A stretch of DNA of 64,000 bases, from assembly GCA_036172245.1 (NCBI GenBank), contig JAYWIR010000012.1:1736001-1800000 (forward strand), given 5' to 3'. The notes under the pieces were generated by a model that was not told the DNA's origin, did not search any database, and saw nothing but the letters and a program-made list of their open reading frames with translations. The DNA is from Raillietiella orientalis. Its lineage: Eukaryota. Below, one piece after another: positions 11,101-50,902 of the stretch (the first letter of the stretch is position 1; the number at the start of each line of letters is the position of its first letter). The position numbers and the translations under genes were made by a program.

Positions 11101-11705
11101 ACAATTTTTTTTTTCTCCGACTACCCTCGACACAAACCAAGTTCCAATTGAAAGCCTTGGCGCTCTGGAAAGAGCACGTTGCCACGAGAAGCTGGATGAA
11201 ACGCGTACTGTATCCGTAGAGCCGCTAGAGGTAAAACACAGCATCTTTCAAATCAACATGAAATCGGTCAGGTGAAAGAACTATTGAGCATGGGTCTGAG
11301 AGCTCAGCTTCGATGTCTTCTGTGAAAGCATCTCGCTTTCTATCGTTTCTACTTGGCAGAAGCTATGAGATGGGCAAGCATAGCTAAATTCCACTAGCAA
11401 TCGCTGGAAACAAATCTCTTCGGCGGTGGCTTCGAAGGGGTGCACCTTAGAAGAGGAGACAATGCGTGCAGCGATTGCGACTCAATGCTGGGGTCGCCTT
11501 ACTACTGACCTCCATTTTTCACCTCAACAATCCGCTTGAAGGAAGCCACCAATGCGACTAGCAGGCACCGTCACACGAGTCAAAAGTGTCTCCCATTTTG
11601 AGGGGATTTCATCCGCTCCCTTCGCCGAGCATCGACCCAGGAACCTGGAAGGCCAAGAATTGATGAACCGCATCGGCGGCTGTCTGACTGCAGCTGACTC
11701 CGCGC

Positions 11706-11738
11706 GTGAGTTCGAATCCCGCCCGGGGAAGGACCGCC
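11706..11738 (+). other. tRNA 3'-half / B-box fragment abutting the outer end of the left arm
   Basis: GTGAG-TTCGAAT-CCCGC-CCGGGGA-AGGACCGCC; 11710-11738 matches 13408-13436 at 28/29 nt. No recognisable tRNA 5' half. Confidence 0.6.
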
Positions 11739-13307
11739 AGCTGCCCCGCCCTTCCGACGCGCAAGGGCAAGCGCCAAATCGATGGGCGTCAATTCGATCC
11801 GGGGATCCCGGTCTTCCCAGGCAAAAGCGCGCACGGCGCGTCACCTCCAGGCCACGGTCCCGAGGGAAAGGGGGCAAGCCGGCGGACGCCGTGGGGCGCA
11901 GAGCGTGCCCTGGCCCACCGGCCCACAAGTTCAAGGGGGGATGAAAGGTACCGGGTGAAAAAGAGAAGGCACGCCTTTCGGTCTACGATGCGGGGAGTCG
12001 CGGGAGGGCCGAGTTCCTTCCTGCGACGCGTTTCAGGAACGGGAGGGAAGGGATCGTCCGGTAGAGGCAGGAGGCGAATTTCGGCGGGATCCCCATTGCT
12101 CCCAAGGCGCAGCGGGAGCATGGGTGGTTCCCTCCCGGATCGCCTCGTTGGAGTCTGGCGCTTCGCCGCCCGGACTGTTGGCTTCCTCAGGCGCCACAGT
12201 GGAGGAGAGGAAGGATGATCTTCCTTCAAGGACTCCCTCCTTCTCCTCTCCGCTCCCGGACCGCTCCCAGATCGAGGACGCCTCCCATCTCTTCGACGCG
12301 GCGCCTTCCGAACGGGTGGGCGAGGGGAAGCATCCGCTCCTGAGAAGCCGAGGCGCCCGGCCCAAAGCCCCACAAAACTCGGGGCAAAAACATCAAGGAT
12401 GGTGACGGCTCTGAAAGGTCAAAGAATGTGGTCCTGTGCTCACTGAGAGGCCACCATCTCCGCTCGACTCCGGACCTCTCCCTGCCTGAACACATAGGTC
12501 GGCTCCCTTCACTCCGACCTCCCTCCTGAGAAAACACCAGCGATTCTTCCCTTGAGGCAGGATGGCCGGCGCAGTGGTCTGGGAGTACCGGGGCGCAGCC
12601 GACCCGCCTGCGGCGGTGTCTCACGGGTGTCTCGGAGAGAGAACTTCGGGGTCAGATGTGCAGGCTTGAGTAGGGGAGTCGCTTACCTTTGGCGCAGTCG
12701 AGCCTTCTAGGGGCTTCCCTGCCAATCCTCCTCCCCATCCCCTCGTTGCTCCGGCCGCCGGCGATGTCCGACGCTTACTCTTTCCTGCCGGCCCGGTCGC
12801 TCCCCGTTTGGTCACCTTTCTTCCCGCTTTCCCTTCCTCCTCAGCATTCCGGATCTGTTTCCTCCCTCGGACCTTTTGACCTTTCCGTCCTCTGGTGCTC
12901 CCATCCTAGCAACCGTTTCCGTGCACCGTCAGGGAGCGCGCGAGTTTTCCTTCGACCTTTCCGGATGCTGAGGGGATCTTGGCAGTCAGACCACGGGTTG
13001 CTGAATAGCGCGTGCTATCTCCAAAGTAACGGGAATCAGCAGAACACTCTCTGGCTCGAAGAAACGGAAGGAGTCAGGAGAAAAACAACAATCGCATTGC
13101 CAAAACAGCTGGGGAAGGTGGATGCTGGGAAGTCTGCGGGCACCGAACTTCGCCCCTGGAAAGGTCTTCTGAGATCCCCTTCCCGTTCGAATTCCGCCTT
13201 TTGCTCGAGGTCCCTCTTCACCTCGCCTCCCGAAGGAGGTCCACAGCCATCACCCGGTCGACTTTCACAGCGGGTTATGGCAAGCGGCATGGCGATTCGA
13301 GGTGCAA

Positions 13308-13380
13308 GGGGGCGTAGCTCAGGTGGTAGAGCGCTCGCTTAGCATGCGAGAGGTTCCAGGATCGATGCCTGGCGCCTCCA
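13308..13380 (+). tRNA. tRNA-Ala-AGC: tRNA-Ala(AGC)
   Basis: 73 nt cloverleaf. Acceptor stem GGGGGCG/CGCCTCC with the G3:U70 Ala identity pair; anticodon arm CTCGC-TTAGCAT-GCGAG; T arm CCAGG-ATCGATG-CCTGG; TTTT terminator at 13387-13390. Confidence 0.97.
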
Positions 13381-13403
13381 TGGTTATTTTGCTCGCGGGC
13401 ATC

Positions 13404-13436
13404 GCGGGTTCGAGTCCCGCCCGGGGAAGGACCGCC
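13404..13436 (+). other. tRNA 3'-half / B-box fragment 23 nt downstream of tRNA-Ala (mirror copy at 22127-22159, minus)
   Basis: Perfect T arm GCGGG-TTCGAGT-CCCGC followed by an acceptor-like CCGGGGA; no D or anticodon arm. Confidence 0.65.
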
Positions 13437-13743
13437 TCCGAGAACAGGGGATGCGTCGTGGTTTTCCAGTCCGTCCGCCAGTTGGTCTGCAGGCTTCGCG
13501 TGCGTCGGTTGACACCCGATCGCGTTGGGGCGTTTATTTATAAAATAAACACACACGTCTGTGGCAGAACGTTTGATCCTGCCACGTTACTTATGAATAC
13601 GGGAAGGAACCTGCTGGGATCTGGCACGCAGGCCAGCGGGGTTCGCCTCGGCAGCACAGGGAAAGGGGAGAGACAAACAAAAAGAAGAAAACACAACGAA
13701 AAATGTAGTCCAAAAAATGGGAGAATGGGAGTTCGGGAAGGGA

Positions 13744-14333
13744 TTACTGTGTGCTGGTGGGTGTCCTCTGCATCCTTGTAAGGATGCCGGCAAGTTCCTG
13801 TTTTATGGTTCCCAGATGGTGCCATCTCGATGCTGTCCTCATGAAGAGGACAGCAAAATAGATGGCGTCCCTGTCGTTCTGGCTTTCTCTGGCGTTGCTC
13901 CATGCGACCTCGATCCCGCGTAGGCAGCAAAGTGCTGCTAGGTAGGGAATGCGGCCTGCCGGCGAGGGGGCGTGGCGCAGGAAGAGGCGCTTAACAACGT
14001 CTCTGGCCTTGCCGCCGGAGGTTCCAAGGGTCGCGGCAAAGAGTCCTTAAAGGGATCGGAGGGCAACACAGTCCACTAGGAGATGCGGGAAGGATTCCCG
14101 CTCCCCGCACCTTGCACAGTTTGGGTTCACGCACACCCTGTGTCCAGAGATGCCGGCATGCGTTGCACAGGAGGCTCCAGTGCAGCAGCATCAATGCGGT
14201 CTCCTGCCACTCTACGATGAGGGTGCAGGTGTTCATGAGCGCCGGGGCCCACTGCAGGTCTTCCTCCGTAATACTCGTAATACAGTAGCACTCCCCAGCT
14301 CAAAGGTCCATGAGGTCGAGCAATCGGGGTCGC
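13744..14333 (-). pseudogene. Decayed copy of unassigned ORF family A (left-arm duplicate)
   Basis: Mirror of 21230-21819. Confidence 0.6.
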
Positions 14334-14759
14334 AGCGTCGGTGAGCTGATCCGTCGTTCACTCGCCCAGTCTTTTCCTCCTTCCGGAGATCTGCACAGTA
14401 ACCTTCCATCTAGCCGTAAAGCTGCTTCCGATGTGCTCCCTAAGGGAGGGTAGCGCATTGGTGGTAGTCGAAAACTGCCGGATGCCTTTGCTGACTAGCC
14501 GGCATGGAAGTGGACCCTCCGGGGTCTTTCCAGATCATCAAGGAGCCCTTCAGTGTTCCCTGCGGTTGTGAAAATGGAGCGTATCTTTCGGTCCATGGCC
14601 TTTTCCTCCCCTTCCTTCTTTTACTCCTACTTCCTCCTCTCTCCGCTTTCCTGCACCTCCTTCGTCTCCTTCTTCCCCAGAGCGAACCGTTCTTCAGCTG
14701 GGCGAGAGAACCGTTCCTCGCTTCATCAGACTTTCCCCCTTCCTCCTTGACTCATCCTC

Positions 14760-15160
14760 AGGCACCAGTGTGGCGGCTGTCCCGACCTCCCTCGATGGCT
14801 CCTGGGCCGCGTCTGCGAATCCAGGTCTGCACTGAAAGGCAACGGAAGCAGCCTCCGGCATCTGCCAGGGAAACCCTTCTCTTTCGCAGGAAGGCATCCC
14901 ACCGGGTGAGGGTGCGGCTCTCCAGCCGATGGGCCCGCATCGATCGGACCAGTGAACCTCCCAGAGTCCCACGGAGAGGCCCTCCGGCTCTTCGAAGCCT
15001 CCTGACCTCGTGCGCCGACTCAGTTTCCGTAGCCTTTTCTTAAGTGATGGGAACAGGAAAGGGGAAGAGAAGGGCGCGTGCACCTACACAAAGCTCCCCT
15101 CGAAGGCTGCGCCCCACCTGCCGGGAAGTGCCGGGAGCATGGCTCTGGGGAGGGCTCTCG
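14760..15160 (-). pseudogene. Diverged repeat, probable decayed family A copy
   Basis: Colinear nucleotide similarity to 17655-18020, including an identical 23-mer CGGGAGCATGGCTCTGGGGAGGG (15132-15154 / 17994-18016). Minus-strand peptides PLRGTLG and HRLESRTL versus PLRGILE and HRLENRAL, with synonymous differences. Confidence 0.55.
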
Positions 15161-17654
15161 GACCTCCCTCCCTCTGAAAGGAGGCTGCGGCTGCTTTCGG
15201 GAGCTGCTCCTATGGGAGCAAAGAGGGGAAGAGGTTGTAGGGCTTGGCGAAGGTCCCCCCTCCTCTTTTGGACAGGGAGGACACCCTCTTCCCAACAACG
15301 GCCACGGCGGGAAGAGCAGAGACGGCTGGCGCTCCCCTCCCGAGGGTTCATGTCCAAGGCCACCTCCAAGGGGCAACTTCGGAAACCGAGGGGTCCTTAC
15401 GTGGGAGGCGAGGGCTAGCGACCCTGCGACCGGGGAGCGAGCTGTTAGGCCACGCCCTGATTGACCTCGGGACGAGTGGGCAGCCAGTGGAGAGACAGGG
15501 CGTCCCGGAGCCTCAGGCTCTGTGGGGGAGAGGAAGGGCGACGTTTTTGGAGCCACGCGTGCTGAAGGAGCAACGGCCACCTTCTCAGGAAGGTGGATCG
15601 TCCGTGAGCCAGTGGCGAACGCAGGCCACAGCCAACAGCAAGGAGGGAGGGTCCTTCCATCCACCCCCTATCAGGGATCCAAACCGGAATAAAACCTGAG
15701 GTTCTCTCGGTACCCCAGGGGTCTCTGTGACCAGCTTTGCAGGACCCTCGGAAAGGCAGAACTCCCTCGCCGGCAAAAGCCTCCCGGCAACGGGCGTGAT
15801 GTCGCCATGGCAAGCGAGGAGTCCTCTTTCTAGAGGAAGGGGTGCGGAACCGCTCTTTTTTACCCTCTGGAGTCTTCTGGACCGAGTGGAGCAGCCAGGA
15901 GGGGGAGGAGGGAAGGGGAGAAGGAGGGGAGGATTTTCCGGGATGAGTTCGTCCCGGGCGTCTTTCCGTCCCCTCCTTTCTCTTCTATCGCTCCCTTCTC
16001 GGGGGCGGGGTTTTCGCCACTCGTCCCCTTCTCCCTCGCGAAGGGCGCTCCCCAGCTGCAGCTGCGATCGCCGAAGGCCATGAGGGTGGAAAGGGCTGCT
16101 CCTGGAGGACCCTTCCTCGCTAAGGAAGAAACTGCCACCTCGCTCCCCAAAATAGGGGCGAAGTTCCGTGGCCGCCTGAAGTTGTCTTTCATTCGCGGGT
16201 CCTCTCCTGTCCCTGCAGCCCTCTTGACTGCAGTGGGCAGTTCGCCACCCCAGGCCAGCAGGGGTCGCACAACAGCTCTCTCAAATTGGTGGACGTCGAG
16301 GACGATGTTTTTTTTGGCTTCGCCCCCCACAGCTCCCAAGATTGAGGCTGCCAATTCAACGAAGACTCCATAAGTCCCCACCCTCCTATCCAGAGCATTC
16401 CAACCGGAAGGGAGCCTGTTCGATCACGGACCTTCCCAGGAGGGATCCGTCACCTTGCACACGGGCAGTATCGCGGCCGCTGAACGAAAGGGAGGAGCGA
16501 TTATTGCTAGTTGAAAACTTTCACGAGGGATCCTTGGGGACGTTCCCCACTTACCGCCCCAGACCCACGGCCGAAGGCTGAGTTGTCTCTCCCGAAACCA
16601 CCACCTCCAGGTAGTGCAGAGGATCCAGCAGACAGACCAGTGTCCAGGAGTGAGGTGGGGCTTCAGGGTGAAGGGGGTCCACTGAAACGTTAGAATGGAG
16701 TCGAAATTCTCCTCCCTTCTTCCGGAGCCCTCGAGGACCGACTGATCTGTTCCTCGAGGAAGAACAGGATACCGTGCCGCGCCCCTTTCGCTCCCAGGAC
16801 TACATGATGCCCTCCGGCATCATATAGTTTTGCAGGCGAGGTTCAACCGACGGAGGGGTCATCGTTTTGGAAGAGCCGGTCCAGTGAGGAGACAAGCCCT
16901 TCCTGCCCCTCCCTTCTTTCCTTCTGGACGTAGGGAAAGAGGTGTGTGAAATTCCCTGGAGGGTTCCCGTTCTCTCCTCCTCCCTCCTCCCTATCTTTCC
17001 ATCTTGTCCATCTGGATAGCCAGAAGTGAGGATGCCTCCACATCCTTGGCGCTCCTTCCCTTCACCCTCTCCCGCCCTCACCAGATGCTCGGACGGACGC
17101 ACGGGAGCCGGGAGCGCAGAAAGGGCGCGCGTAGGGATTCGCCCGCTCTTCCGGTCCTCCCACACCCTGAGGGCTAGGATTCCCCGAACGTTCCAGGAAA
17201 ATCGAATGCGTGTCGTCTTCTTCCCCCTCACCTCCTTAGAGTTTTTCCCCTTCAATGCGGAAAGTGAAAGGAAGAAAGGAAGGAGAAGGAGGAAGAGGAG
17301 GAGTATGAGGAAAGGGAATCTAGCGACGAACGGAAGGGAGGAATGGAGGCGCTTGGAAACGCTGAGCGTTCCCCCAAGTCAGCTCCGAGAATGCACCCTA
17401 TGTGACTTCTTTACTACCCGAAATCGCCCGCCAGTGGCGGGCATTCTCTCCCTTTCCCGAGGCGCAGCAGCGAGTGGCGCAGGTCGCGAGAGATTCTCTT
17501 CCGCACCCTCCCGTCAGCACCTTGGCCTGTGTGCGCAGCCCGCGTGGAGCACCCTGGCGCGCCGCCACAGGAGGAAAAAGGTTTCTTGACCGTTGAGCCG
17601 CGGGAACCCGTCTTTTCCCTGCCGGTTTCTCTCCCGTCCCTCTCCCGCACTCTT

Positions 17655-18020
17655 GACCAGTGGGCAGTTATCCGCCCCAGGCCACCTGAGAGGGGCGCGC
17701 CGACTCCAAGCGGCCTGGCGGCTTCCCTTGCTCACCGGCGTTACCGGTGAGGGGGTGGAACGACGCTAACTGCGGCTGGACCTCCGGATGAGTGCACGAT
17801 TCTCCAGCCGGTGGATGCTTCGGTCGGGCCTGTGGACTTTCTAGGATCCCGCGGAGCGGCCTCCCACCCTCGAGCGCCATCTCGATCCTCGTATCCTTTT
17901 CTTAAATCACGTGAGGACAGGAAAGGAAAAGATGGGGTCTCCAGCACCCTCAAGGTCAGAGCTTTTCCCGATGGCTCATCCACCGGGGAGTGACGGGAGC
18001 ATGGCTCTGGGGAGGGTGGA
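17655..18020 (-). pseudogene. Diverged repeat, probable decayed family A copy
   Basis: Paralogue of 14760-15160. Minus strand GACCCCATCTTTTCCTTTCCTGTCCTC...ATCGAGATGGC...CTCCGCGGGATCCTA aligns with arm copy GACGCCATCTATTTTGCTGTCCTC...ATCGAGATGGC...CTTGCCGGCATCCTT. Stops and frameshifts present. Confidence 0.55.
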
Positions 18021-19859
18021 CCACTCCAAGAGGCCCGGTCGCTTCCCTTGCCTCAAGGTAGTCGAAGGGCATGATGCAACCTCGCGTGCTCTTCTGATGT
18101 CAGTAGCAAAGCAGGGAGAGCAAGGGGGAGGCAAACTCTGTTTTGCAGGTCAGGTGACGGGGAGATTGCGTGTAGAGGAGCAACACGGCAACTCCTTGAG
18201 GCAGGGCCAAGAAAGGGACCTCCGGAGGAAGGAATCATCTCGGAGTTCCCTTCTTTTTCTATCACCCCAACCTCCAGCACCAGCACCAGCAGAAAGATCG
18301 GAGTCTCGAGGAGCAGGGGCCAAAAGGATGAAGACCCGTGGTGACTGTGACTCGTAGGGTTCCCCAGGGCCGAAGAGAATTCCCGTTCCGGCTCTCGAGA
18401 CCACGCGCGGGGCAAATCCAGGAGGGGGAAGGGATAAGAGTAGGGATGGTTCCGGTGACAGGAAGATCGGGTCTCCTTGTGGCAGCTCTGGACCCAAGAA
18501 GGGCTTCCCATGCTAGATCTGCAGGCCAACTCCTGGATCCACGTTGACGAAGCCCGGCGAAGACAGCCCAATCCGCTCCGAAGCCCCGGCAATAGCGTTG
18601 GGAAGCGGCCGCGGCGTCCGAGGGAGGAACATCGCGTCTCGAGGAGATGACCGACAGAAGGCGCCACCGGGGACCCTTGCCCACGAGTCCGCCCTTCCGA
18701 CCGGCGGCGGCTCCATCTGGCTACGGCGACCCCTGCCCCGAAAGGGAGCGAGGCGATTCTGCGTGCGTGCGAAGGTCGAGGACGAATCTTTTCGGTTCGG
18801 GAATAGGAACCGCCGCGGGACCTGGGAGTATAGCGCGAACCATTGCCACGAGCCAGCTGCGAGGAGCGCCTTGCCGCTGGACTTCCGCCCCAGAACGAAG
18901 AAACTGGTCGCTTGCTCCCGGGACGCGTTCCCCCCGGGAAGAGAGCATCAAGGCGAAGGAGGGAGGGGGGAGTAAAAGGCGCTCGCCGAATTCAGGATCT
19001 CGCTCCTCCGAAACGCTCTCGAGCGTTCCCCATACTTGACTTGGAGAGCAGGGTTGACACCGCCTCCTGTGACCCACGAAGCGAGGCCGAAAGCCGAGCA
19101 TGCGGCGGCAGGAGGCAGCGCCGCGGCGACACAGGCCCCGGAGAGAAGAGGAATGGGATCCGAGGTTCCTGCGGTGCATGTGTGCCTCCCCTGCCCTCCC
19201 CGCTAATGGGCTGGAAACGGACGCACGTACGACCGCAACAGGAGACTGTCTCTGCCCGGGATCAACTCGGTTCCCTTCCCTCTTGTGCTCAGTGCAGACA
19301 GCCGCCCCCGATAGGACGGGCAGAGAGTCTCCGCGGGTCGCCGCGGGCAGCGACCTCCCCGTGTGTTGAGGACCAAGCGACGGCAGTGGGATGGCCACCC
19401 CGTGTGGGGAAAGAAAGGAAATCCGTCGAGGGGAACGCGCGCATGCGCACAGAGGCGGCGACGGCTTCGTAGGCTGGCAGCCCTGGAGGAAGGGAACTAC
19501 TGGATCCCTCCCAAGCTCGGGACACCGCAGTGCCTGGTTACAGGTAGCAGCTGGAACGTGGGCGAAGATCAATTCGGAGGGACCGCGCTGCCTGTGATGC
19601 TCCCGATGCGTTCGCTGCCCGCTGCGGGAGGTCCCAGCCGGAAGCCCCAGCTAGAGCATTCCCCCTTGCCGCAGCACTGCCCTCCCTAAGGGAGAGCGAA
19701 ATGAAAAATTGCCTGCGGGTGATGTGGGAAGTCAGCTGCGAAATAGGTTGCAGGAAGAAACCGCTTGGTGGATAGACAGCTGGGCGACCCATTGACCCCA
19801 AGTGCCGCACCGAAAGGACTGCTCCGCTGGGCAGAGATTCTCGGCATCTCCCCCTTCCT

Positions 19860-20340
19860 ATGAGAAACCCCAGTTTCCTGCGGTACTGATGGACAGCTCC
19901 ACTCTCCCTCTACAGTGGCAGGAGCCGGCAATGCTGATGTCTCACGAGGACCTCCCACGCTATACCCTCCAGGGAGAGTCTTGGGGAAAGGGAAACCCTC
20001 CCGCACCCGCCTGTTGACTGCGCTATCCTCCGGCTCCTTTGGGAACGTCCTCAGAGACGGACATCCTCAGATGGCGGACAGCCTCAGAGACGTTATAAGT
20101 GCTTCTTCCTGCGGGATGCCCTGTCGCCAGCCGCATCCTGCCTGCGCGGGATAGCGGGCGGCGGCCTGGAGCCCTCTTGCAAGAGGCCGGTACGACAGGG
20201 ACGCCATACACTCTCAGGAAATTGAGATGAGGTGGCTTCATCCGGGGACTGCACAGGTGGAACTTGAGGTCATCTTTCAGGGTATGCAAAGAACACTCCC
20301 CAATGGACTGGGGTCACTTTCTGATCCCCCCATCAATAGG
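19860..20340 (+). pseudogene. Decayed copy of unassigned ORF family A
   Basis: Frameshifted peptides QFPAVLMDSSTLPLQWQEPAMLMSH, VDCAILRLLW, LRGI..AWS, YDRDAI, MRWLHPGTAQVELEVIFQGMQRTLP are colinear with 21230-21819; identical 16-mer ACGACAGGGACGCCAT at 20192 and 21686. Confidence 0.65.
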
Positions 20341-20619
20341 TTTGTTTATTTTTTATATATGTATTTATTTTTAGATTGTTTTCCTTCCAGTAGCAACCTC
20401 ACGGGAAGGTCGTTACCATTGATCTGCGATGTTGGGAATCTTCTATGCTTTTCCCTGTTTCGTTGTTTTTCTTCCAGAGGTTTTTTTTGATTCTCAAAGA
20501 GTGCTGATAACGTTCGCCCACTTGGGGGGAGTGGGAGCTTACGAAGCTCTTTAGCACTGTTGACGTCACTCGAGGGTGCGTATGACTTTTCAAGTTCGAA
20601 GGTAATCCCGGGGGAACCA

Positions 20620-21110
20620 CCCCATGAATCCAGGAAGACTTCGGAGGAAGAAGCACGTTCCTCTTACGATTGGGAAGGAACCCTTTCCCTGGTTGTCTCC
20701 GAAGGAAACCCCGAAGGGATCCTCTTCCTTGTTCTTTCCGGAGGTACTTCCCAAACCGGCCTAATCCTCGTTTCTTCTCCGGAGAGGACCCAGAAGAATC
20801 CGTTCCTGGAATTTCTTCTCCAGAGGTCACCCTTAATGGAACCGAAACTTTTTTGTTTCCTCCTCTGAAGAGAACCCCGAAAGGACTCTTCCCAATTTCT
20901 GTGAAGGACGCTCCTCAAAGGGAGCGGCACAGTTCTTGACATTCTGGAGTGGTCAACCCCCCGAGGGGGTTTCAAAGATCCCCAAGGCATGCGATAGAAA
21001 GGAAAAACGCTGAAGGGCTCCTTGATGATCTGGAAGGACCCCGGAGGGTCCACTTCCATGCCGGCTAGTCAGCAAAGGCATCCGGCAGTTTTCGACTACC
21101 ACCAATGCGC
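20620..21110. repeat. Dispersed diverged repeat (family B), copy 1; straddles the inner end of the right arm
   Basis: Colinear with 48620-49050, e.g. TGAATCCAGGAAG, CGTTCCTCTTACG, TCCTCTGAAGAGA, TTCCCAATTTC, CCTTGATG..GAAGGA.CCCGGA.GGTC.ACTTC, GCATCCGG. Confidence 0.8.
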
Positions 21111-21229
21111 TACCCTCCCTTAGGGAGCACATCGGAAGCAGCTTTACGGCTAGATGGAAGGTTACTGTGCAGATCTCCGGAAGGAGGAAAAGACTGGGCG
21201 AGTGAACGACGGATCAGCTCACCGACGCT

Positions 21230-21819
21230 GCGACCCCGATTGCTCGACCTCATGGACCTTTGAGCTGGGGAGTGCTACTGTATTACGAGTATTACGGAGG
21301 AAGACCTGCAGTGGGCCCCGGCGCTCATGAACACCTGCACCCTCATCGTAGAGTGGCAGGAGACCGCATTGATGCTGCTGCACTGGAGCCTCCTGTGCAA
21401 CGCATGCCGGCATCTCTGGACACAGGGTGTGCGTGAACCCAAACTGTGCAAGGTGCGGGGAGCGGGAATCCTTCCCGCATCTCCTAGTGGACTGTGTTGC
21501 CCTCCGATCCCTTTAAGGACTCTTTGCCGCGACCCTTGGAACCTCCGGCGGCAAGGCCAGAGACGTTGTTAAGCGCCTCTTCCTGCGCCACGCCCCCTCG
21601 CCGGCAGGCCGCATTCCCTACCTAGCAGCACTTTGCTGCCTACGCGGGATCGAGGTCGCATGGAGCAACGCCAGAGAAAGCCAGAACGACAGGGACGCCA
21701 TCTATTTTGCTGTCCTCTTCATGAGGACAGCATCGAGATGGCACCATCTGGGAACCATAAAACAGGAACTTGCCGGCATCCTTACAAGGATGCAGAGGAC
21801 ACCCACCAGCACACAGTAA
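21230..21819 (+). pseudogene. Decayed copy of unassigned ORF family A (right arm)
   Basis: EEDLQWAPALMNTCTLIVEWQETALMLLH, then after a frameshift VDCVALRSL*GLFAATLGTSGGKARDVVKRLFLRHAP...LRGIEVAWSNARESQNDRDAIYFAVLFMRTASRWHHLGTIKQELAGILTRMQRT...*. Internal stop and frameshifts. Confidence 0.65.
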
Positions 21820-22182
21820 TCCCTTCCCGAACTCCCATTCTCCCATTTTTTGGACTACATTTTTCGTTGTGTTTTCTTCTTTTTGTTTGTCTCTCCCCTT
21901 TCCCTGTGCTGCCGAGGCGAACCCCGCTGGCCTGCGTGCCAGATCCCAGCAGGTTCCTTCCCGTATTCATAAGTAACGTGGCAGGATCAAACGTTCTGCC
22001 ACAGACGTGTGTGTTTATTTTATAAATAAACGCCCCAACGCGATCGGGTGTCAACCGACGCACGCGAAGCCTGCAGACCAACTGGCGGACGGACTGGAAA
22101 ACCACGACGCATCCCCTGTTCTCGGAGGCGGTCCTTCCCCGGGCGGGACTCGAACCCGCGATGCCCGCGAGCAAAATAACCA

Positions 22183-22255
22183 TGGAGGCGCCAGGCATCG
22201 ATCCTGGAACCTCTCGCATGCTAAGCGAGCGCTCTACCACCTGAGCTACGCCCCC
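22183..22255 (-). tRNA. tRNA-Ala-AGC: tRNA-Ala(AGC), identical copy in the right arm
   Basis: Exact reverse complement of 13308-13380. Confidence 0.97.
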
Positions 22256-25196
22256 TTGCACCTCGAATCGCCATGCCGCTTGTCATAACCCGCTGTGAAA
22301 GTCGACCGGGTGATGGCTGTGGACCTCCTTCGGGAGGCGAGGTGAAGAGGGACCTCGAGCAAAAGGCGGAATTCGAACGGGAAGGGGATCTCAGAAGACC
22401 TTTCCAGGGGCGAAGTTCGGTGCCCGCAGACTTCCCAGCATCCACCTTCCCCAGCTGTTTTGGCAATGCGATTGTTGTTTTTCTCCTGACTCCTTCCGTT
22501 TCTTCGAGCCAGAGAGTGTTCTGCTGATTCCCGTTACTTTGGAGATAGCACGCGCTATTCAGCAACCCGTGGTCTGACTGCCAAGATCCCCTCAGCATCC
22601 GGAAAGGTCGAAGGAAAACTCGCGCGCTCCCTGACGGTGCACGGAAACGGTTGCTAGGATGGGAGCACCAGAGGACGGAAAGGTCAAAAGGTCCGAGGGA
22701 GGAAACAGATCCGGAATGCTGAGGAGGAAGGGAAAGCGGGAAGAAAGGTGACCAAACGGGGAGCGACCGGGCCGGCAGGAAAGAGTAAGCGTCGGACATC
22801 GCCGGCGGCCGGAGCAACGAGGGGATGGGGAGGAGGATTGGCAGGGAAGCCCCTAGAAGGCTCGACTGCGCCAAAGGTAAGCGACTCCCCTACTCAAGCC
22901 TGCACATCTGACCCCGAAGTTCTCTCTCCGAGACACCCGTGAGACACCGCCGCAGGCGGGTCGGCTGCGCCCCGGTACTCCCAGACCACTGCGCCGGCCA
23001 TCCTGCCTCAAGGGAAGAATCGCTGGTGTTTTCTCAGGAGGGAGGTCGGAGTGAAGGGAGCCGACCTATGTGTTCAGGCAGGGAGAGGTCCGGAGTCGAG
23101 CGGAGATGGTGGCCTCTCAGTGAGCACAGGACCACATTCTTTGACCTTTCAGAGCCGTCACCATCCTTGATGTTTTTGCCCCGAGTTTTGTGGGGCTTTG
23201 GGCCGGGCGCCTCGGCTTCTCAGGAGCGGATGCTTCCCCTCGCCCACCCGTTCGGAAGGCGCCGCGTCGAAGAGATGGGAGGCGTCCTCGATCTGGGAGC
23301 GGTCCGGGAGCGGAGAGGAGAAGGAGGGAGTCCTTGAAGGAAGATCATCCTTCCTCTCCTCCACTGTGGCGCCTGAGGAAGCCAACAGTCCGGGCGGCGA
23401 AGCGCCAGACTCCAACGAGGCGATCCGGGAGGGAACCACCCATGCTCCCGCTGCGCCTTGGGAGCAATGGGGATCCCGCCGAAATTCGCCTCCTGCCTCT
23501 ACCGGACGATCCCTTCCCTCCCGTTCCTGAAACGCGTCGCAGGAAGGAACTCGGCCCTCCCGCGACTCCCCGCATCGTAGACCGAAAGGCGTGCCTTCTC
23601 TTTTTCACCCGGTACCTTTCATCCCCCCTTGAACTTGTGGGCCGGTGGGCCAGGGCACGCTCTGCGCCCCACGGCGTCCGCCGGCTTGCCCCCTTTCCCT
23701 CGGGACCGTGGCCTGGAGGTGACGCGCCGTGCGCGCTTTTGCCTGGGAAGACCGGGATCCCCGGATCGAATTGACGCCCATCGATTTGGCGCTTGCCCTT
23801 GCGCGTCGGAAGGGCGGGGCAGCTTGCAGGGAAAACTAAGCCAGAAGGGAAGACTCTCTGGCTGGCACCACGGACGACCCCGACTTGCCTGTGGGGCTGG
23901 AGCGGGGGCAGGCAACCGGGAGGAATCTCCAAGGATGGTCCGATGGCTAAGTTCATCGGGCAGGTCAAACGGGAGGCGGTGGTGATGGGATGCGAGGTGC
24001 GAAGCGGCAACTTCCCCTTCCCCTTCCTTTCTTGGGCCACGCTGTGGAGCCTCCTTGGAGGAGGGGCCACTCCGAGAAGAGTGACGTCACGCTGGGGATC
24101 ACGCTGGGCGACTTTTTCGGAGACAGGTGGAGGTTCATCCCCTGCCCGCTGCCCGCTGGTCTGTAGAAAAGAGGAGAAAGCGCATTAAGAGCCACCTGGA
24201 ACCGGCCTCCCTCGCTTTCCCGCGCAGGAAGGAAGGGCGTAGCTCTCTCCATCCACTCTCGTAGTCCGCCAGCGTGCTCCTTTGGTCGCGCAGCTGCGTG
24301 GCTGCTGCCACGTGGCTGTGCAGCACGGGAGAGGTGGAACGCCCTACGGAGACGCCTACTGCCGGCAGCGAATGCCCAGAGCCGCCCGTCAAGGTCGCGG
24401 ACTGACCGAGGGAAGCGCTTCCTCTTTCCCTCCTCAGCCATCCAGCCGTGGGGTCGGGAGACCGCCCTGCTCGAGACTCTGGAGCGGGCAGGAGGAGGGC
24501 GGGGCTGCGGGTAGCTGGTTCGGAGCTTCGAGACGTGTCTCATCCCGGTCGAGCGCTCGGGAGGTTGGGGGTAAAGGGGAGCAGGGAACCGAAGGAACCT
24601 CCGTCAATGCTTGTCGTAGTCCATGGCTGAGGACGTGGCTGCGAGCGATGCGCCATCCCTTCTTCCGGGGATGAAGAGACCGGTGCTCCTCCCTCCTTCT
24701 CCTCCTCCCCGTCTCCCTTCTCTGAGAGTGCGCGCCTCGAGTCCCGGATCCCGGATTTTCCCTCTCTGGCAATGCTGCAAAGAGCTACCGGGAGGCTCCC
24801 TCAGGTGCGAGAAGAGCTCTCCGGGAAGGAGGGAGGCTTCCGGGAAAAAGAAGCGGGCTGCGCTCTCCGATGTGCTGGCAGGAGTGGGACGCGGGGAGTG
24901 GGAATGGGTGGCGTGGAGCAAGGAAGAAAACAAGGAGTGCTGTGGGAAGAGTCCCGGGTCGAATTTCTCCGCTGTCCTCTTCCAGACTCCTGCCAGACGG
25001 GTGTCAAGCCAACCGTCTCTGTCATCTCTCCATGCCGGTGCAGCATCCGCAACTCCCGGCGTTCGATGAGATCCTGGAACCCGGCAGTCTCCGAATAGCC
25101 AGCCAAGCTTCGTCCCGTGACCTCCCCTCCTCCTCCATGGCCATCTCCTCAAGGGAGTTCGTGCAAATCGTTCTAGTTGAAAGAAGCAGGCTTTTT

Positions 25197-25201
<5 letters not shown>

Positions 25202-25228
<27 letters not shown>
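25202..25228. repeat. Poly(A) homopolymer, 27 nt
   Basis: Directly visible; the longest of many A/T runs in the window. Confidence 0.9.
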
Positions 25229-25231
<3 letters not shown>

Positions 25232-26543
25232 GAGAAGAAATCGTCCAAGAGATCCATCCTTTTTCTACGGTCATGCTCACAATCCATGCGAGCAGCCAAA
25301 CAAACCCTAAGAGCCTCCCCATCCTCCTCCTCGCGCAGCACGATTACGGAAACCGTGGGTGCTTTGCACGGAGCCAACAAGCCGCGCCAATTTCAAGCCT
25401 TACCTTCTGGAATCTGCAGTCTGCTTCCAACAGGACGACCGGAAAGCCCCAGAGAACTCCTGTCTGTGCCATTCCGAGCTAAAAGTGAATCGAATTCCGC
25501 GACGATCTCCCCTTCAGTGGGGGGAATCTTGTGCCCAGAGCTTGTCGCATGCTCGCAGCTATGTCTTCGGACCAGCCGAGAAAACCCAAGTCACGCACCG
25601 AACCCGATCCAAATGGTTTGCGCAGAGCATCCGTTCGAAATCTCCCGTTCGGTGGCTCTCGTGAGCTTCCGCGCTGCCTCCTCCTTGTGCACCCCTGCGG
25701 AGGACGGACGGATTTTGCGCGCGACCTTATTTTTCCTTTTGTTTCGAGACGCGCCTTCGAACGCGTTCCTCTGCGCCACGCTTTGCTGCGCGTTGCTTCT
25801 TCCCCCGCGTCACACTGCCTCGAATACTGCAGATGCTGGATGCTGAGTAAGCTTTCTCCGCACCTTTCTCCCTGCGGCGTGCTTCCTGACGTTTCCACCG
25901 CCGGCGTGGCTCGCAAATGCACCCATCAGCCACTCCCGATGGGATGAGCGTGAGAGACGAGCATCCGCAAACGGCCGGCCCGAGTCCTGGCGGCGGCACC
26001 GGGACGTTTCGGAAGGAGAGTCCGCTGCCAGGCGTCTCGCGAGCGCCGCGGGTCAGCTGCGCGGTGGGTGGAAACGTGTCGAAATCCTGCGGCTGGCCGA
26101 AGAAGACGTCCGGGTCTTCCTCAGGGGTGTTGCAATCGGCCGCCGCTCCGCGCGCAGCGCTCGCTCTCGCTCGTGCGCGCGCGCCCCGCTAGAGTGCGCG
26201 CTGCCCGAGCTGCTAACAGCTGTGCGTTCAGCTGCAGTCGAGTGTCGGTTGGTGTTTTGCAAAGTACCGTACAAGAATCAATATAATTCAATTTTGTGCG
26301 CAGAAATCGAGCAGTCTTGAAATTCACATCCGACCGAACATTTATCAGTAAATTCTACTCTCACTTGTTTTGTTTCCTTGTTATCGATTTGCAGCTTACC
26401 ACATACGGATGTGCCACGGAATAAAATTATTACTACCGAATTGATTGTTTTGCATGCGTTTTTTTTTTTTTTTTTTTTCTATTAATGCTTTAGAGAAACC
26501 AGAATTTGCCATTCTCAGGAAGTGAATTTGAGAAAAGGAAAAC

Positions 26544-47683: not shown

Positions 47684-48619
47684 AGAGGAGGAGGAAGAAG
47701 GAAGCAACACTACTGGCCTACGGATCTTCAGCGGCGGAGCCTCAGGAGGAGGGAGGCTCCGGGGATCACCAGCAGCTGCGCGCCGCGCTCTGCAGGGCTG
47801 CTGGCTTGCGTTCGGGATCGTACCTTTCTGAGCCTGATCACAGAGTTTCGACCACTCGTGCCACATGCTCCTCGAGGGGTCTTGCATCCCTCTTTCTACG
47901 GCATCTTTGGGGACAGGGTCGCCTTATGGTGCACGTGCGGCGCCAGTTTTTCATCAGAGAAAAATCCTGGCGCTTCTGGGAGCCCTGTCCCACTCTGGCA
48001 GCCTACGGGCACCCTTTCAATCTCCTTCCCTTCCTCCCTTCCTGGTAGTACAGGCAGAGCAGTCCTTTGGGTCGGCCGAGAACGGGTGGCCCATTCTCCT
48101 CCTCCATCAGCCACGTACACGGCGCACCATGTCCCCGCGTGTGCTGCTACCTTGGAGACGCGAGTGTGTTGCTCAACGTATCCATGGGTCTTCCATGCTT
48201 CGGGAACCTCCGTTCTGGCAGACAACTCAAAGCTCCCACGAAAACGATGGGAGGGAAAGACAGTCTTTGGGCCGGAGAGATCAAGAAACACGGAGGAAGG
48301 GATCCATGGTCGAGGATGCAGTCACGCCGTGCTGCGGATCTTGCACGCGAGGACCACGCAGGCGTCGACGGTTATCACCTCGGTTGTCAGCATCACATTG
48401 CCTCTTAGGGAGCGAAGATCTCAAAACAGCTAGGAGGAGAGCGCTGGCTTGGCGTTCTGAAGAAGATGATGGGTTTTCTTTTTTTGCTTTGGTTCTCAAG
48501 AGGTGCTGAAGAACCGTCTGCTTTCTTAGCGGGGACTCGCGAAGCTCTTGAACGCTGTCCATGCAGCCAGAGAGTGCGCGTGACTCTTCAAGCTATACGA
48601 GGTCACTACAGAGGGACCG

Positions 48620-49050
48620 TGAATCCAGGAAGGCTCCGGAGGAAGGAGTCCGTTCCTCTTACGCTTGGGAGGTTGTCTCCGGAGGGAGTCGCAAAGGGAA
48701 GAACATCTTCCTTATTCTTCTCGGAGGGATCCCTAGATTTGTGGGGGACCGCTCTTCGTTTCTTTTTCAGAAAGAACCGGCAAGGGAACCGCTCCTTCTT
48801 TACTCCTCTGAAGAGAGCCCCATAGAGATGTTTCCCAATTTCCCTGAAGGGTGCTCCCCTAAGGGAGCAGGGCCCTTCTTACACCGCAAAGGCAACCCCT
48901 GAGGAGGTATCAACCAGCTCGTGGCACGTGGAGGAGGACCCCGAAGGGAACCGGCACCTTGATGTCTTTGAAGGATCCCGGAAGGTCAACTTCACATATC
49001 GGTCGATCGAGAGCATCCGGTTTTCAGCTTACATCAATGTCGCCGCACAT
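48620..49050. repeat. Dispersed diverged repeat (family B), copy 2
   Basis: Same orientation as and colinear with 20620-21110. Confidence 0.8.
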
Positions 49051-50829
49051 GAAGCCTACCAGCGTCATCTCACGGGGGGACTCGAAACCCACGACTCAAC
49101 CCCCCGTGCTCGGTACCGATCTTCCACGTGGAGATTCGAACCCGCAACGCTTGGTGCCACAAACGGAGACAGCAGACACGCGGGCCAGGATGGGAAGATG
49201 GCGTTTCGCGAGTTTTCCATTCCAAGGGACTCTGGCGGTGTCTCCAGATGCAGCGAAGCCCTGCAGAAGGAAGCGAGCGGGAGGGAGGCAGCCGCGAGCC
49301 ATGTGCTCCCTTGATTCCAAGCGCCAGAGAGGTCGCTCCGTTCCAGGAGGCGATCTCCTGGAGAGGCAGAGGTCGATCCTGGCGAGGGTGAACGGAGCGA
49401 CCTATTTCCCTGCCCCTAGGCAGAGAAGCGGCCTCTGCCAGGATAAGGACCTCCAGCCACGTTTTGAGGAGCGCAAGCGCGAGACGGGAAGTGCAGAATG
49501 AAGCGATGATGAGCTCCCGGGGAGAGGCGAATTGGATTCCGCAAGGGTCACGGGTCACCGACGGGCAGCTGGAACGCCGAGGAAGGTCAACTTCCCGGAA
49601 GACGGAGGAGGGCCACGTCCAGCTGGAGCTGAACTCTGTCTCCAAAGCAGGTCGCCATTCTCCGACCTCCGGCAAGGGGTAGGACACCTGCATTCTCAAA
49701 CCCCTTGGGGCGACCGGCTCCGTGACAGTCCACAAGCCGGAAGCTTCCCTCCATCCACTTCTGAACGAAGGAGCACTGTCAGAGCAGGCACCTTCCAAGA
49801 GGAAGAAGATAGATCAAAATAACCGTTCCAGCTGAATGCTGCAGGAACATTTTCAGAGTGTCCTCTCGCGGCAGAGTTTCCCGATGTGGGGAGGGGGGGG
49901 AAGGTAGTGGGGTTCTTTGGTGTTTGCGAGAGCTTTCTCAGAGTCCTTGCCCCTGACTCTCGAAAGGAAGGCGTTCCACTTCCACGAGCCCCCGTGCGAT
50001 GGAGCAAACGAATGGAATGAAATTAATTGGCGGTCGTGAAGATTCTGGGAAGCCCGCAGAGGGTTCTAGGGGGAGCTCAGGAAGAGTCGGGAGGAAGGGG
50101 AACCAGATCGGACTCATGGACACGCGGGCGATGACCCCGGGGATACGAAACGAGCGTTCCTTCCGGTCACGATCATCGGATTCTGCGGCGAACAAGCGAA
50201 AAGGAGAAATGCCGTCACGTGACGTCCGCGCGCCAACATCGTCACGCATCGCACGTGCCGAGTCTCGCGTGCCGTTTTTTCCTTGCGGGCTCGATCCCTG
50301 TGGCACCTTTGCTCTTAAACTGTGGTCAGTGGAAACCATTCGCCATTCCCTACTCTTATCGATACGTTCTGGTAACCCTGACCCAAGCAAGGAGCCAAAT
50401 GCATCGCTTCGATTACTTCGAGATGAGCTCTGGAAGTTCTGGAAGAAAGCGGAAAAGAAACTTCTGATAAAATAAGTGGGTAAATAAAATAAGTGTCGAT
50501 GGTTGGTCGCATCCATTATTTTCTACATCACTTTTTCGGGAGAAGTACATCGTCAAAACTCTCGTTATCCATTTGGAGTCTAAGGATATTCTTTGCTCGA
50601 AGCAGCTGCGTATTTACCATGCAAAAAGCAAATAGAAATTCGTAATCGTATGTGATTTGCGCTTTTTTTATCCCCAGCTACATGATGATAAAATTCCCAG
50701 ATACTGTTGATAATTATTGATCCCTTGGTCAAGACAGATGGAGAACTTTTGGCAGCGCACAATGCACCGATACCGCTCGAGTTTGTCTCCCTTCCCATAT
50801 ATGCAAAGTAAGGGAAATACGGTACTGTG

Positions 50830-50902
50830 GCCTCGGTAGCGCAGTAGGTAGCGCGTAAGTCTCATAATCTTAAGGTCGTGAGTTCGATCCTCACCCGGGG
50901 CA
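50830..50902 (+). tRNA. tRNA-Met-CAT: tRNA-Met(CAT), elongator type
   Basis: 73 nt. Acceptor GCCTCGG/CCGGGGC (G1:C72, so not initiator); anticodon loop CTCATAA; T arm GTGAG-TTCGATC-CTCAC; TTTT runs downstream; AT-rich upstream flank. Confidence 0.97.

What the first reader, a model, noticed from the sequence alone, without database searches (positions are those of the whole stretch)
11739..23824. 12 kb cassette bounded by 2.8 kb near-identical inverted arms, each carrying tRNA-Ala
Seen: arms of 2815 bp with two mismatches noticed, around a 6456 bp spacer. There is no TSD and no recognisable transposase, integrase or RT. Each arm has an intact tRNA-Ala(AGC), a tRNA 3'-half fragment and a decayed family A ORF; the two tRNAs point inward. 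Inference: a very recent inverted duplication, a palindrome homogenised by arm-to-arm conversion, or a non-autonomous foldback-type element carrying a tRNA. Recombination between arms would flip the spacer, and read-through transcription would give long dsRNA able to target family A.
Basis: partly seen in the sequence, partly recalled or inferred. Interest (0 to 1): 0.75.

Follow-up and report, generated by a model that had tools for sequence, protein, structure and literature searches.

The report
Young inverted duplication carrying tRNA-Ala
A 2.8-kb stretch of non-coding DNA holding a tRNA-Ala gene is present twice, back to back around 6.5 kb of unique DNA, and looks like the scar of a recent small chromosomal rearrangement (probably a mini-inversion), not like a jumping gene: an ordinary kind of structure.

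Summary
Arms 11739-14553 and 21010-23824 (2815 bp) differ at 2 sites, around a 6456-bp spacer. Each arm carries a full-length tRNA-Ala(AGC), and the two genes point inward.

It is not a mobile element. No ORF of 60 aa or more in the arms, spacer or near flanks hits Pfam. I found no TSD, no terminal or tandem sub-repeats, and no other copy in the window. "Family A" is an old 948-bp non-coding repeat, not an ORF.

New here:
- An old paralog at 48.5-49.2 kb is collinear across the spacer/right-arm junction, so that junction is ancestral and the left-arm/spacer junction is new.
- An 8-bp inverted micro-duplication sits just after the left arm's inner end and just after the right arm's outer end (16 of 20000 random position pairs do as well). 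This is the layout predicted for an inversion made by staggered breaks (dupINVdup).

Best reading (0.45): a very young ~9.3-kb micro-inversion that duplicated 2.8 kb at one break and 8 bp at the other. The main rival is an inverted copy inserted by template switching. No genome or reads were available, so an assembly artefact is not excluded. Earlier notes of this scan report many similar inverted duplications on other DNA of this genome.

The parts
11739..14553 (+). Left arm of the inverted duplication (2815 bp). Its inner junction with the spacer (J2, 14553/14554) is a new junction.
   Evidence: J2 is new because the old paralog follows the right arm into the spacer, not the left.
21010..23824 (-). 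Right arm, the reverse complement of the left arm. Its inner junction with the spacer (J3, 21009/21010) is ancestral.
   Evidence: 20481-21107 aligns as one block with 48483-49039 (62.6% of 642 columns, E 2.9e-39). Alignment A1 shows homology on both sides of J3.
14554..21009 (.). 6456-bp single-copy spacer. It is non-coding and holds old direct repeats (14899-15154 ~ 17781-18016) and the old repeat copy Y' (19673-20382).
   Evidence: 0 Pfam hits for its ORFs of 60 aa or more.
13308..13380 (+). tRNA-Ala(AGC) gene, left copy. TTTT at 13387-13390.
22183..22255 (-). tRNA-Ala(AGC) gene, right copy, identical to the left copy.
14556..14563 (+). TTCCCTGC: inverted copy of the 8-bp micro-duplication, 2 nt after the left arm's inner end.
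23826..23833 (+). GCAGGGAA: the 8-bp micro-duplication, 1 nt after the right arm's outer end.
   Evidence: a match of 8 or more in 12-nt windows at 16 of 20000 random position pairs
11705..11738 (+). tRNA-Met-like 3' fragment just outside the left arm, ending exactly at the outer junction J1. 31 of 34 identical to the arm-internal copy.
13403..13436 (+). tRNA-Met-like 3' fragment inside the left arm, 22 nt downstream of tRNA-Ala. Its twin in the right arm is at 22127-22160 (-).
21108..22055 (+). It is absent from the 48-kb paralog. Its twin in the left arm is at 13508-14455 (-), and an older copy lies at 19673-20382 (+) in the spacer.
48476..49154 (+). Old paralog of the spacer-end/right-arm region, with a weak trace of a decayed tRNA-Ala just beyond it. 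It serves as an internal outgroup.
13280..13280 (.). Arm difference 1 (partner base 22283), 28 nt upstream of tRNA-Ala.
14527..14527 (.). Arm difference 2 (partner base 21036), 27 nt from J2. The old paralog agrees with the right arm, so the left arm carries the derived base.

Best explanation
This is a real, very young local rearrangement of non-coding intergenic DNA. It is not a mobile element.

Most likely a segment of about 9.3 kb (arm + spacer + 8 bp) was inverted after two pairs of staggered breaks. One pair was 2.8 kb apart and the other 8 bp apart. Fill-in and end joining then left the sequence between each pair of breaks duplicated, in inverted orientation, at the two ends of the inverted segment. 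The predicted product is L - A - rc(b) - rc(M) - rc(A) - b - R, where L and R are the left and right flanks, A is the 2.8-kb arm sequence, M the segment between the breaks, b the 8-bp word and rc the reverse complement. This is the 'staggered-break' or dupINVdup type of inversion.

A by-product is a second, identical copy of a tRNA-Ala(AGC) gene.

Shown: the duplication; its sharp ends; the ancestral state of the spacer/right-arm junction; the 8-bp inverted pair at the predicted places; the absence of element features.

Inferred: that the spacer is inverted relative to the ancestor; that the left flank/left-arm junction is ancestral; the break-and-fill-in mechanism.
For: (1) Arms of 2815 bp differ by 2 substitutions and no indel.

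(2) Identity falls at once to background at all four ends. No inverted homology is found between the outer flanks (best E 0.032 over 25 nt) or between the spacer ends (best inverted E 1.7). The same method does detect 62%-identical old paralogs.

(3) The old paralog 48483-49039 is collinear with 20481-21107 across J3. The spacer part and the arm part are each significant alone (20853-20925 ~ 48796-48868 at 80%; 21016-21107 ~ 48953-49039, E 1.4e-6), and their offsets agree within 6 nt. J3 is therefore ancestral and J2 new, as the model requires.

(4) TTCCCTGC at 14556-14563 and its reverse complement at 23826-23833 lie 2 nt and 1 nt from the two junctions that the model makes new (J2 and J4), in the predicted orientation. 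A match this long in 12-nt windows occurred at 16 of 20000 random position pairs from the same GC-rich blocks.

(5) The derived base at 14527 is on the left arm, 27 nt from J2.

(6) The first 200 nt of the spacer are strongly pyrimidine-rich on the + strand (skew -0.5, -0.4), and the first 100 nt of the right flank are purine-rich (+0.26). The bias would be continuous if the spacer were turned back (weak).

(7) The model and its product are described by Ranz et al. 2007 (PMC1885836, passages read): 17 of 29 Drosophila inversions have such duplications, and 6 have them at both breakpoints. The same layout is the human dupINVdup class (PMC6286558, passages read).

(8) No Pfam hit in 0 of 104 ORFs of 60-129 aa from 11.0-21.3 and 23.7-26.6 kb, and none in that region among the 150 of 164 ORFs of 130 aa or more that were scanned.
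Against: - No outgroup, genome or reads were available. The inversion of the spacer and the ancestral state of J1 are untested.
- I noticed the 8-bp match before I tested it, and it was one of 8 end-pair comparisons. With that correction p is about 0.006.
- GC content steps up at J1 (0.54 to 0.68) but is smooth across J4 (0.66 to 0.62). This fits J4 being the old junction, which is the rival's prediction (weak).
- A tRNA-like fragment ends exactly at J1, and the model leaves this as a coincidence.
- In Drosophila such duplications reached at most about 1.9 kb and flanked far larger inversions, so 2.8 kb around 6.5 kb lies outside that sample.
Confidence: 0.45

Rival explanations
1. An inverted duplicative insertion. 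The right arm is the original. A copy of it was made in reverse orientation and set down 6.5 kb upstream, between the left flank and the spacer, by replication template switching (FoSTeS/MMBIR) or by capture at a break. The spacer was never inverted. J1 and J2 are the new junctions.
For: - J3 is ancestral and J2 new, as this model also needs.
- There are 0-3 nt of possible microhomology at J1 (GC) and J2 (GTT).
- GC content is continuous across J4 but steps at J1.
- The homology of the flank's tRNA-like fragment to the arm-internal copy stops exactly at J1, as it would if a breakpoint cut an older element.
- One of the two arm differences, derived on the left arm, lies 27 nt from J2. This fits error-prone copying.
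- Newborn duplicates lying adjacent in inverted orientation are common in C. elegans (PMC2728529, one passage read).
Against: - This model leaves the 8-bp inverted pair at J2/J4 to chance (16 of 20000).
- The flank fragment is not a fresh templated copy of the arm-internal one. It differs at 3 of 34 bases, and the two differences in the T-stem strand (of the 3) are the bases of the window's tRNA-Met.
- The start of the spacer shows no homology to the sequence that follows the internal fragment (1618 of 2000 shuffles score as well), so no old continuity between left flank and spacer can be shown.
- The short inverted microhomology at the two spacer ends expected for simple fold-back priming is absent (longest match 4 nt).
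Confidence: 0.27
2. An assembly artefact. One arm does not exist in the organism and was created by chimeric or fold-back reads, by gap filling, or by misplaced haplotype sequence.
For: - No read data or independent assembly could be consulted.
- Earlier notes of this scan describe many near-identical inverted duplications elsewhere in this genome. That could reflect a systematic assembly problem as well as biology.
Against: - The window has no N. The structure lies inside continuous sequence with unique DNA on both sides and in the middle, so two independent false junctions would be needed.
- The arms differ by two transitions and no indel, unlike a copy built from the same reads.
- One difference is polarised by an internal outgroup.
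- The 8-bp micro-duplication with 1-2 nt of filler looks like a repaired break.
Confidence: 0.12
3. An older palindrome whose arms are kept alike by arm-to-arm gene conversion. The low divergence would then understate its age. This is compatible with either origin above.
For: Near-identical arms around a unique spacer are what conversion-maintained palindromes look like. Earlier notes on this genome favoured this reading for other loci (not tested here).
Against: - There is no gradient or residual homology beyond the arm ends.
- The 8-bp word is still perfect in both copies although it lies outside the arms, where conversion would not protect it.
- The arms are not GC-enriched over the spacer (0.602 against 0.598), so there is no sign of long-term GC-biased conversion.
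Confidence: 0.08
4. A non-autonomous foldback or TIR transposon that carries a tRNA gene, or two insertions of one 2.8-kb element.
For: Long inverted arms. The outer arm boundary coincides with the end of a tRNA-like fragment.
Against: - No TSD around the 12-kb unit: the longest direct match between left-flank end and right-flank start is 4 nt and does not abut.
- No TSD around the left arm (2 nt) or the right arm (6 nt, not abutting).
- No transposase, RT or integrase.
- No tandem sub-repeats or terminal repeats in the arms.
- No further copy in 64 kb, or among indexed findings of the scan.
- The right arm's inner end is continuous with its flank in an old paralog.
Confidence: 0.03

Closest known systems
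Inversions with inverted duplications at both breakpoints, made by staggered breaks (Drosophila melanogaster group; Ranz et al. 2007, PMC1885836, passages read)
   Same: Ancestrally unique, non-repetitive sequence is duplicated in inverted orientation at the two ends of a segment. Sequence from both breakpoints is duplicated (here 2815 bp and 8 bp). The polarity can be read from the junctions. No transposon is involved.
   Different: The segment between the copies is only 6.5 kb, against chromosomal-scale inversions. The large duplication (2.8 kb) exceeds the ~1.9 kb maximum of that sample. Inversion relative to an outgroup is not shown here. The copies are 99.93% alike, against about 88% there.
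dupINVdup complex structural variants of human genomes (Collins et al. 2017, cited in PMC6286558; PMC6286558 passages read)
   Same: The same order of segments: flank, dup 1, inverted dup 2, inverted middle, inverted dup 1, dup 2, flank. Short fillers or microhomology sit at the junctions.
   Different: The human cases are usually ascribed to replication template switching and have duplications of kilobases to hundreds of kilobases on both sides. Here one side is 8 bp.
Fold-back or template-switch inverted duplications with a single-copy spacer, and adjacent inverted newborn duplicates of C. elegans
   Same: Two near-identical inverted copies separated by a few kilobases of unique DNA. Young age.
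   Different: Fold-back priming predicts short inverted microhomology at the spacer borders, which is not found. It does not predict the 8-bp pair seen at J2/J4.
Conversion-maintained palindromes of primate X and Y chromosomes
   Same: Near-identical inverted arms with a unique spacer. Potential for spacer inversion by arm-arm recombination.
   Different: Those arms are tens of kilobases to megabases, carry protein-coding (often testis) genes and are conserved between species. Here the arms are 2.8 kb of non-coding DNA with a tRNA gene, and there is no evidence of age.
Foldback / Galileo-type transposons (recalled)
   Same: Long inverted arms around a middle segment.
   Different: No TSD, no sub-repeat structure in the arms, no other copies seen, and one arm is in its ancestral context.

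Membership tests
Staggered-break inversion / dupINVdup | Inverted duplication of otherwise single-copy sequence at the two ends of a segment | tested here: met
   2815-bp arms at 99.93% identity. They are the only copies in the window.
Staggered-break inversion / dupINVdup | One copy keeps its ancestral neighbour on the inner side, and the other copy's inner junction is new | tested here: met
   The old paralog is collinear across J3 (20481-21107 ~ 48483-49039). The left copy departs at 14553/14554.
Staggered-break inversion / dupINVdup | Sequence of the second breakpoint duplicated in inverted orientation, next to the inner end of one copy and the outer end of the other | tested here: met
   TTCCCTGC at 14556-14563 and GCAGGGAA at 23826-23833. 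16 of 20000 random pairs do as well. The test was post hoc, one of 8 comparisons.
Staggered-break inversion / dupINVdup | The other copy keeps its ancestral neighbour on the outer side (J1 old, J4 new) | tested here: inconclusive
   No paralog spans J1 or J4. GC continuity favours J4 as old. Purine skew favours J4 as new.
Staggered-break inversion / dupINVdup | The middle segment is inverted relative to an outgroup or other haplotype | not testable with these tools
   No genome held, no runs listed, and no hit in metagenome contigs.
Foldback / TIR DNA transposon | Target-site duplication flanking the element | tested here: not met
   The longest direct matches in 12-nt windows are 4 nt (whole unit), 2 nt (left arm) and 6 nt, not abutting (right arm).
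Foldback / TIR DNA transposon | Arms built of tandem sub-repeats or ending in terminal repeats; a transposase in autonomous copies | tested here: not met
   TRF finds arrays only in the spacer. The arms have no terminal repeats. No Pfam hits.
Foldback / TIR DNA transposon | Several copies at unrelated sites in the genome | not testable with these tools
   No genome is held. No copy elsewhere in the window. No look-alike among indexed findings.
Fold-back (hairpin-primed) inverted duplication | Short inverted microhomology at the two borders of the spacer | tested here: not met
   The longest inverted match between spacer start and spacer end is 4 nt.
Conversion-maintained palindrome | Arms older than their mutual divergence (present in related species) | not testable with these tools
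   No related genome is available. The sharp ends and the lack of GC enrichment over the spacer give no support.
Functional eukaryotic tRNA-Ala gene | Full cloverleaf, AGC anticodon, G3:U70 pair, downstream T run | tested here: met
   Rfam 58.5 bits over model positions 1-71 with standard pairs. G3 is opposite U70 in the printed alignment. ARAGORN calls the gene. TTTT at 13387-13390. Position 54 of the T loop is A, not the usual U. Expression was not tested.
Hairpin-RNA (endo-siRNA) locus | Transcription through both arms and small RNAs mapping to them | not testable with these tools
   No RNA run was listed.

The most novel reading that the evidence does not exclude
This locus is one clean, freshly made example of an unusually active process in this genome. 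The process would be small (kilobase-scale) inversions formed by staggered breaks or paired template switches, each leaving a long duplication at one end and a few base pairs at the other. It would continually create inverted duplicate pairs, including new tRNA gene copies.

If so, the many near-identical inverted duplications noted elsewhere in this genome (among them a U2 pseudogene reported as split by a small inversion with a 7-base overlap) would share one origin. The short second duplication would be a diagnostic mark that could be looked for at every one of them.
Probability: 0.25. Interest if true: 0.5.

Novelty: new member of a known kind. Interest (0 to 1): 0.25.

Why it matters
Taken alone, this is a routine young structural rearrangement in intergenic DNA. 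It adds one tRNA-Ala gene copy and an inverted repeat that could allow the 6.5 kb between the arms to flip.

Its value is as a well-preserved case. Because it is so young, all four junctions can still be read, and an older paralog in the same window acts as a built-in outgroup that polarises one junction. The 8-bp mark offers a simple test for telling 'inversion with duplication' from 'inverted copy inserted'. That test could be applied to the many similar structures reported in this genome.

Tried and rejected
Reads and genome:
- No whole genome is held.
- The look-up of sequencing runs on 11006-21005 listed no run: 'none was listed', and no RNA holder was listed (one search had failed on length).

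Independent assemblies:
- One exact-word scan of metagenome contigs with the tRNA-Ala 3' end plus the fragment found 0 loci.

Other copies:
- The search of earlier findings by sequence with 11739-12600 and 20481-22300 found nothing. That index holds only earlier findings, not the genome.

Templated insertion at J1:
- Rejected as a fresh copy, because the flank fragment differs at 3 of 34 bases from the arm-internal one. At the two differences in the T-stem strand (of the 3) it carries the bases of the window's tRNA-Met.

Old continuity of left flank with spacer start, of arm start, or of right flank with the sequence after the internal fragment:
- None found. 1618, 1638 and 1242 of 2000 shuffles scored as well. 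The positive control with the 49-kb paralog gave 0 of 2000.

Idea that the 49-kb paralog's tRNA-Met, about 1.6 kb from the decayed tRNA-Ala, mirrors the flank fragment:
- The distance is similar, but the orientation is opposite.
- No homology beyond the T-arm piece was found, and the arm's outer 1.57 kb is not alignable to 49237-50830 (50 of 100 shuffles as good). Dropped.

Hairpins as break sites:
- DNA folds of 81-nt windows at J1-J4 and at the internal fragment gave z-scores from -1.41 to +1.52, nothing unusual.

Exchanged TSDs from recombination between two transposon copies:
- Only one of the two expected pairs exists (left-flank end against spacer end: 2 nt).

GC-biased conversion:
- Arms are at 0.602 GC and the spacer at 0.598.

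Protein searches:
- Only Pfam was run. The 6 right-arm twins and the last 8 ORFs (60.6-63.0 kb) of the 164 ORFs of 130 aa or more were left out.
- No search of the large protein databases was made for the arm or spacer ORFs, which look like translations of GC-rich non-coding DNA.

Full report
**Observation**

The window holds one long inverted repeat. The repeat finder reports arms 11736-14557 and 21006-23827. A base-by-base comparison places mismatches at 11738, 13280, 14527 and 14554. The clean arms are therefore 11739-14553 and 21010-23824: 2815 bp, two substitutions, no indel, around a 6456-bp spacer.

Self-BLASTN gives 99.894% over 2819 bp and no further copy in 64 kb. ARAGORN and Rfam find tRNA-Ala(AGC) at 13308-13380 (+) and 22183-22255 (-), pointing inward. 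The Rfam alignment covers the whole model with standard pairs, includes G3 opposite U70, and has A at T-loop position 54. A TTTT run follows 7 nt downstream.

**Setting**

The sequence is eukaryotic and, according to earlier notes of this scan, arthropod-like. I did not test the taxon.

- An exon at 5920-6165 (-) matches the rhodanese domain of CEP41 (PDB 11yj, E 5.6e-9).
- An endophilin-B-like gene starts at 26544 (+). Exon 1 is 26544-26600 and is followed by GT. Exon 2 starts at 26744 after AG. A BAR exon lies at 27579-27818 (PDB 6up6, E 4.4e-11; Pfam BAR 41.6 bits).

The repeat therefore lies in a GC-rich (about 0.60), CpG-undepleted block between two divergently oriented, AT-richer genes. 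It ends 2.7 kb upstream of the endophilin-B-like start codon.

**No mobile-element features**

- Of 164 stop-to-stop ORFs of 130 aa or more, 150 were scanned against Pfam. Left out were the six right-arm twins and the last eight ORFs, beyond 60.6 kb. None between 11.5 and 26.3 kb had a hit.
- All 104 ORFs of 60-129 aa from 11.0-21.3 and 23.7-26.6 kb also had none.
- The translations look like GC-rich non-coding DNA.
- TRF finds tandem arrays only in the spacer. The arms have no terminal repeats of their own.
- No direct repeat abuts the 12-kb unit or either arm.

**What the arms are made of**

Region 21106-21893 matches 19673-20382 in the spacer (E 2e-40, about 62% identity, same orientation). 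It is the main part of a 948-bp block (21108-22055) that is an insertion relative to an older paralog of the whole neighbourhood at 48.5-49.2 kb. In that paralog the flanking sequences abut at 49039/49041.

The 'tRNA 3' half' is a 29-nt word present three times against 0 expected. It resembles the T-arm and acceptor end of the window's tRNA-Met (20 of 24, 0 of 2000 shuffles as good). Rfam does not call it tRNA at E<=10. Two copies are the arm twins. The third lies at 11705-11738 and ends exactly at the left arm's outer boundary.

**Polarity**

The paralog at 48.5 kb works as an internal outgroup. Region 20481-21107 aligns with 48483-49039 as one block (62.6% of 642 columns, E 2.9e-39). The spacer part and the arm part are each significant alone, and their offsets agree within 6 nt. 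Alignment A1 shows the paralog following the right-hand sequence on both sides of 21009/21010, while the left copy departs at 14553/14554.

So the spacer/right-arm junction (J3) is ancestral and the left-arm/spacer junction (J2) is new. At the arm difference 14527/21036 the paralog agrees with the right arm, so the derived base is on the left arm, 27 nt from J2.

Because an arm end has only one ancestral neighbour, exactly one of J1 and J4 is old. There are two possibilities:
- J1 and J2 are new: an inverted copy was inserted.
- J2 and J4 are new: an inversion with duplication.

**The 8-bp mark**

Directly after the left arm's inner end comes TG, then TTCCCTGC (14556-14563). Directly after the right arm's outer end comes T, then GCAGGGAA (23826-23833).

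An inversion made by two pairs of staggered breaks gives L - A - rc(b) - rc(M) - rc(A) - b - R (Ranz et al. 2007, legend of their Figure 2 and text). Here L and R are the flanks, A the arm, M the middle segment, b the short word and rc the reverse complement. The same order defines human dupINVdup variants. With A as the arm and b as the 8-bp word, the observed layout is exactly this, with 1-2 nt of filler at the two new junctions.

A match of 8 or more in 12-nt windows occurred at 16 of 20000 random position pairs from the same GC-rich blocks (41 of 20000 with 15-nt windows and 86 with 20-nt windows). I saw the match before testing it, and I looked at eight end-pairings, so a fair corrected figure is about 0.006. 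None of the other seven pairings stands out (2-6 nt).

**Weaker clues point both ways**

- Purine skew favours the inversion. The spacer's first 200 nt are strongly pyrimidine-rich on the + strand, and the right flank starts purine-rich.
- GC content favours the rival. There is a step at J1 and a smooth passage at J4.
- The tRNA-like fragment ending at J1 remains a coincidence under both readings. It is not a fresh templated copy, since it differs at 3 of 34 bases and two of those differences are tRNA-Met-like states. No continuation of it can be found at the spacer start, the arm start or the right flank.
- DNA folding shows no unusual hairpin at any junction.

**Age and maintenance**

Two differences in 2815 bp is 0.07%. 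Beyond the arms there is no residual inverted homology, although the same searches detect 62% paralogs. The arms are not GC-enriched over the spacer. Nothing requires long-term conversion, but it cannot be excluded without a relative.

**The dsRNA idea**

The only word of 21 nt or more that an arm shares with the rest of the window is 22 nt of the tRNA-like fragment (two 21-mers). Arm-derived small RNAs could therefore not target the 'family A' copies seen here. Whether the arms are transcribed at all is unknown.

**Limits**

No genome, reads or related locus were available, so neither the reality of the structure in the organism nor the orientation of the spacer in the ancestor could be checked.

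Earlier notes of this scan describe many near-identical inverted duplications in other parts of this genome, and one small inversion with a 7-base overlap. I treat these as leads only. They fit either an active inversion/duplication process or a systematic assembly problem.

**Verdict**

This is an ordinary, very young inverted duplication of non-coding DNA that happens to carry a tRNA-Ala gene. It is most likely the scar of a small staggered-break (dupINVdup-type) inversion (0.45). Otherwise it is an inserted inverted copy (0.27). It is not a foldback element.

Noticed in passing
window 48476-49330: An old (about 62-71% identical) paralog of the spacer-end/arm region. It lacks the 948-bp insertion and carries a weak trace of a decayed tRNA-Ala next to the fragment-like piece (4 of 2000 shuffles as good). 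The ancient duplicated unit therefore seems to have included a tRNA-Ala gene.
   Followed up: partly
It starts with a short palindrome (CTCCCTTAGGGAG), has an AT-rich stretch near its other end, and is inserted cleanly between sequences that abut in the 49-kb paralog. It is possibly an ancient non-autonomous element. No protein-family hit.
   Followed up: partly
window 11705-11738, 13403-13436, 22127-22160 and tRNA-Met 50830-50902: The repeated tRNA-like fragment matches the T-arm and acceptor end of the window's elongator-type tRNA-Met(CAT) plus 9 further shared bases. The copy in the left flank has a T-stem strand like tRNA-Met, whereas the arm copies have a compensated, different stem.
   Followed up: partly
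window 14899-15168 and 17781-18026: An old direct repeat inside the spacer (about 65% identity, E 1e-23 / 2.4e-21).
   Followed up: no
window 5920-6165 (-) and 26544-27997 (+): The flanking genes are a CEP41-like gene and an endophilin-B-like gene (exon 1 at 26544-26600, exon 2 from 26744, BAR exon 27579-27818) in divergent orientation. The inverted repeat lies in the GC-rich intergenic block between them.
   Followed up: partly
window 11700-26300 and 32000-64000: Long GC-rich blocks (0.55-0.67 GC, CpG observed/expected 0.75-0.86 across the 10.7-24.8 kb segments measured) alternate with AT-rich gene regions where CpG is depleted (0.3-0.5 at 9.9-10.2 and 26.9-28.1 kb). Almost no Pfam domain is found in the GC-rich parts; one Band_7 exon lies at 41058-41807 (-).
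   Followed up: no
window 13962-13981: A 20-nt stretch 85% identical to the 5' start of the tRNA-Ala gene (13304-13323) lies inside the old repeat. It may be chance.
   Followed up: no
window 25202-25228: A 27-nt A run 1.4 kb right of the right arm. Several other A or T runs of 12-20 nt are scattered through the AT-rich parts.
   Followed up: no
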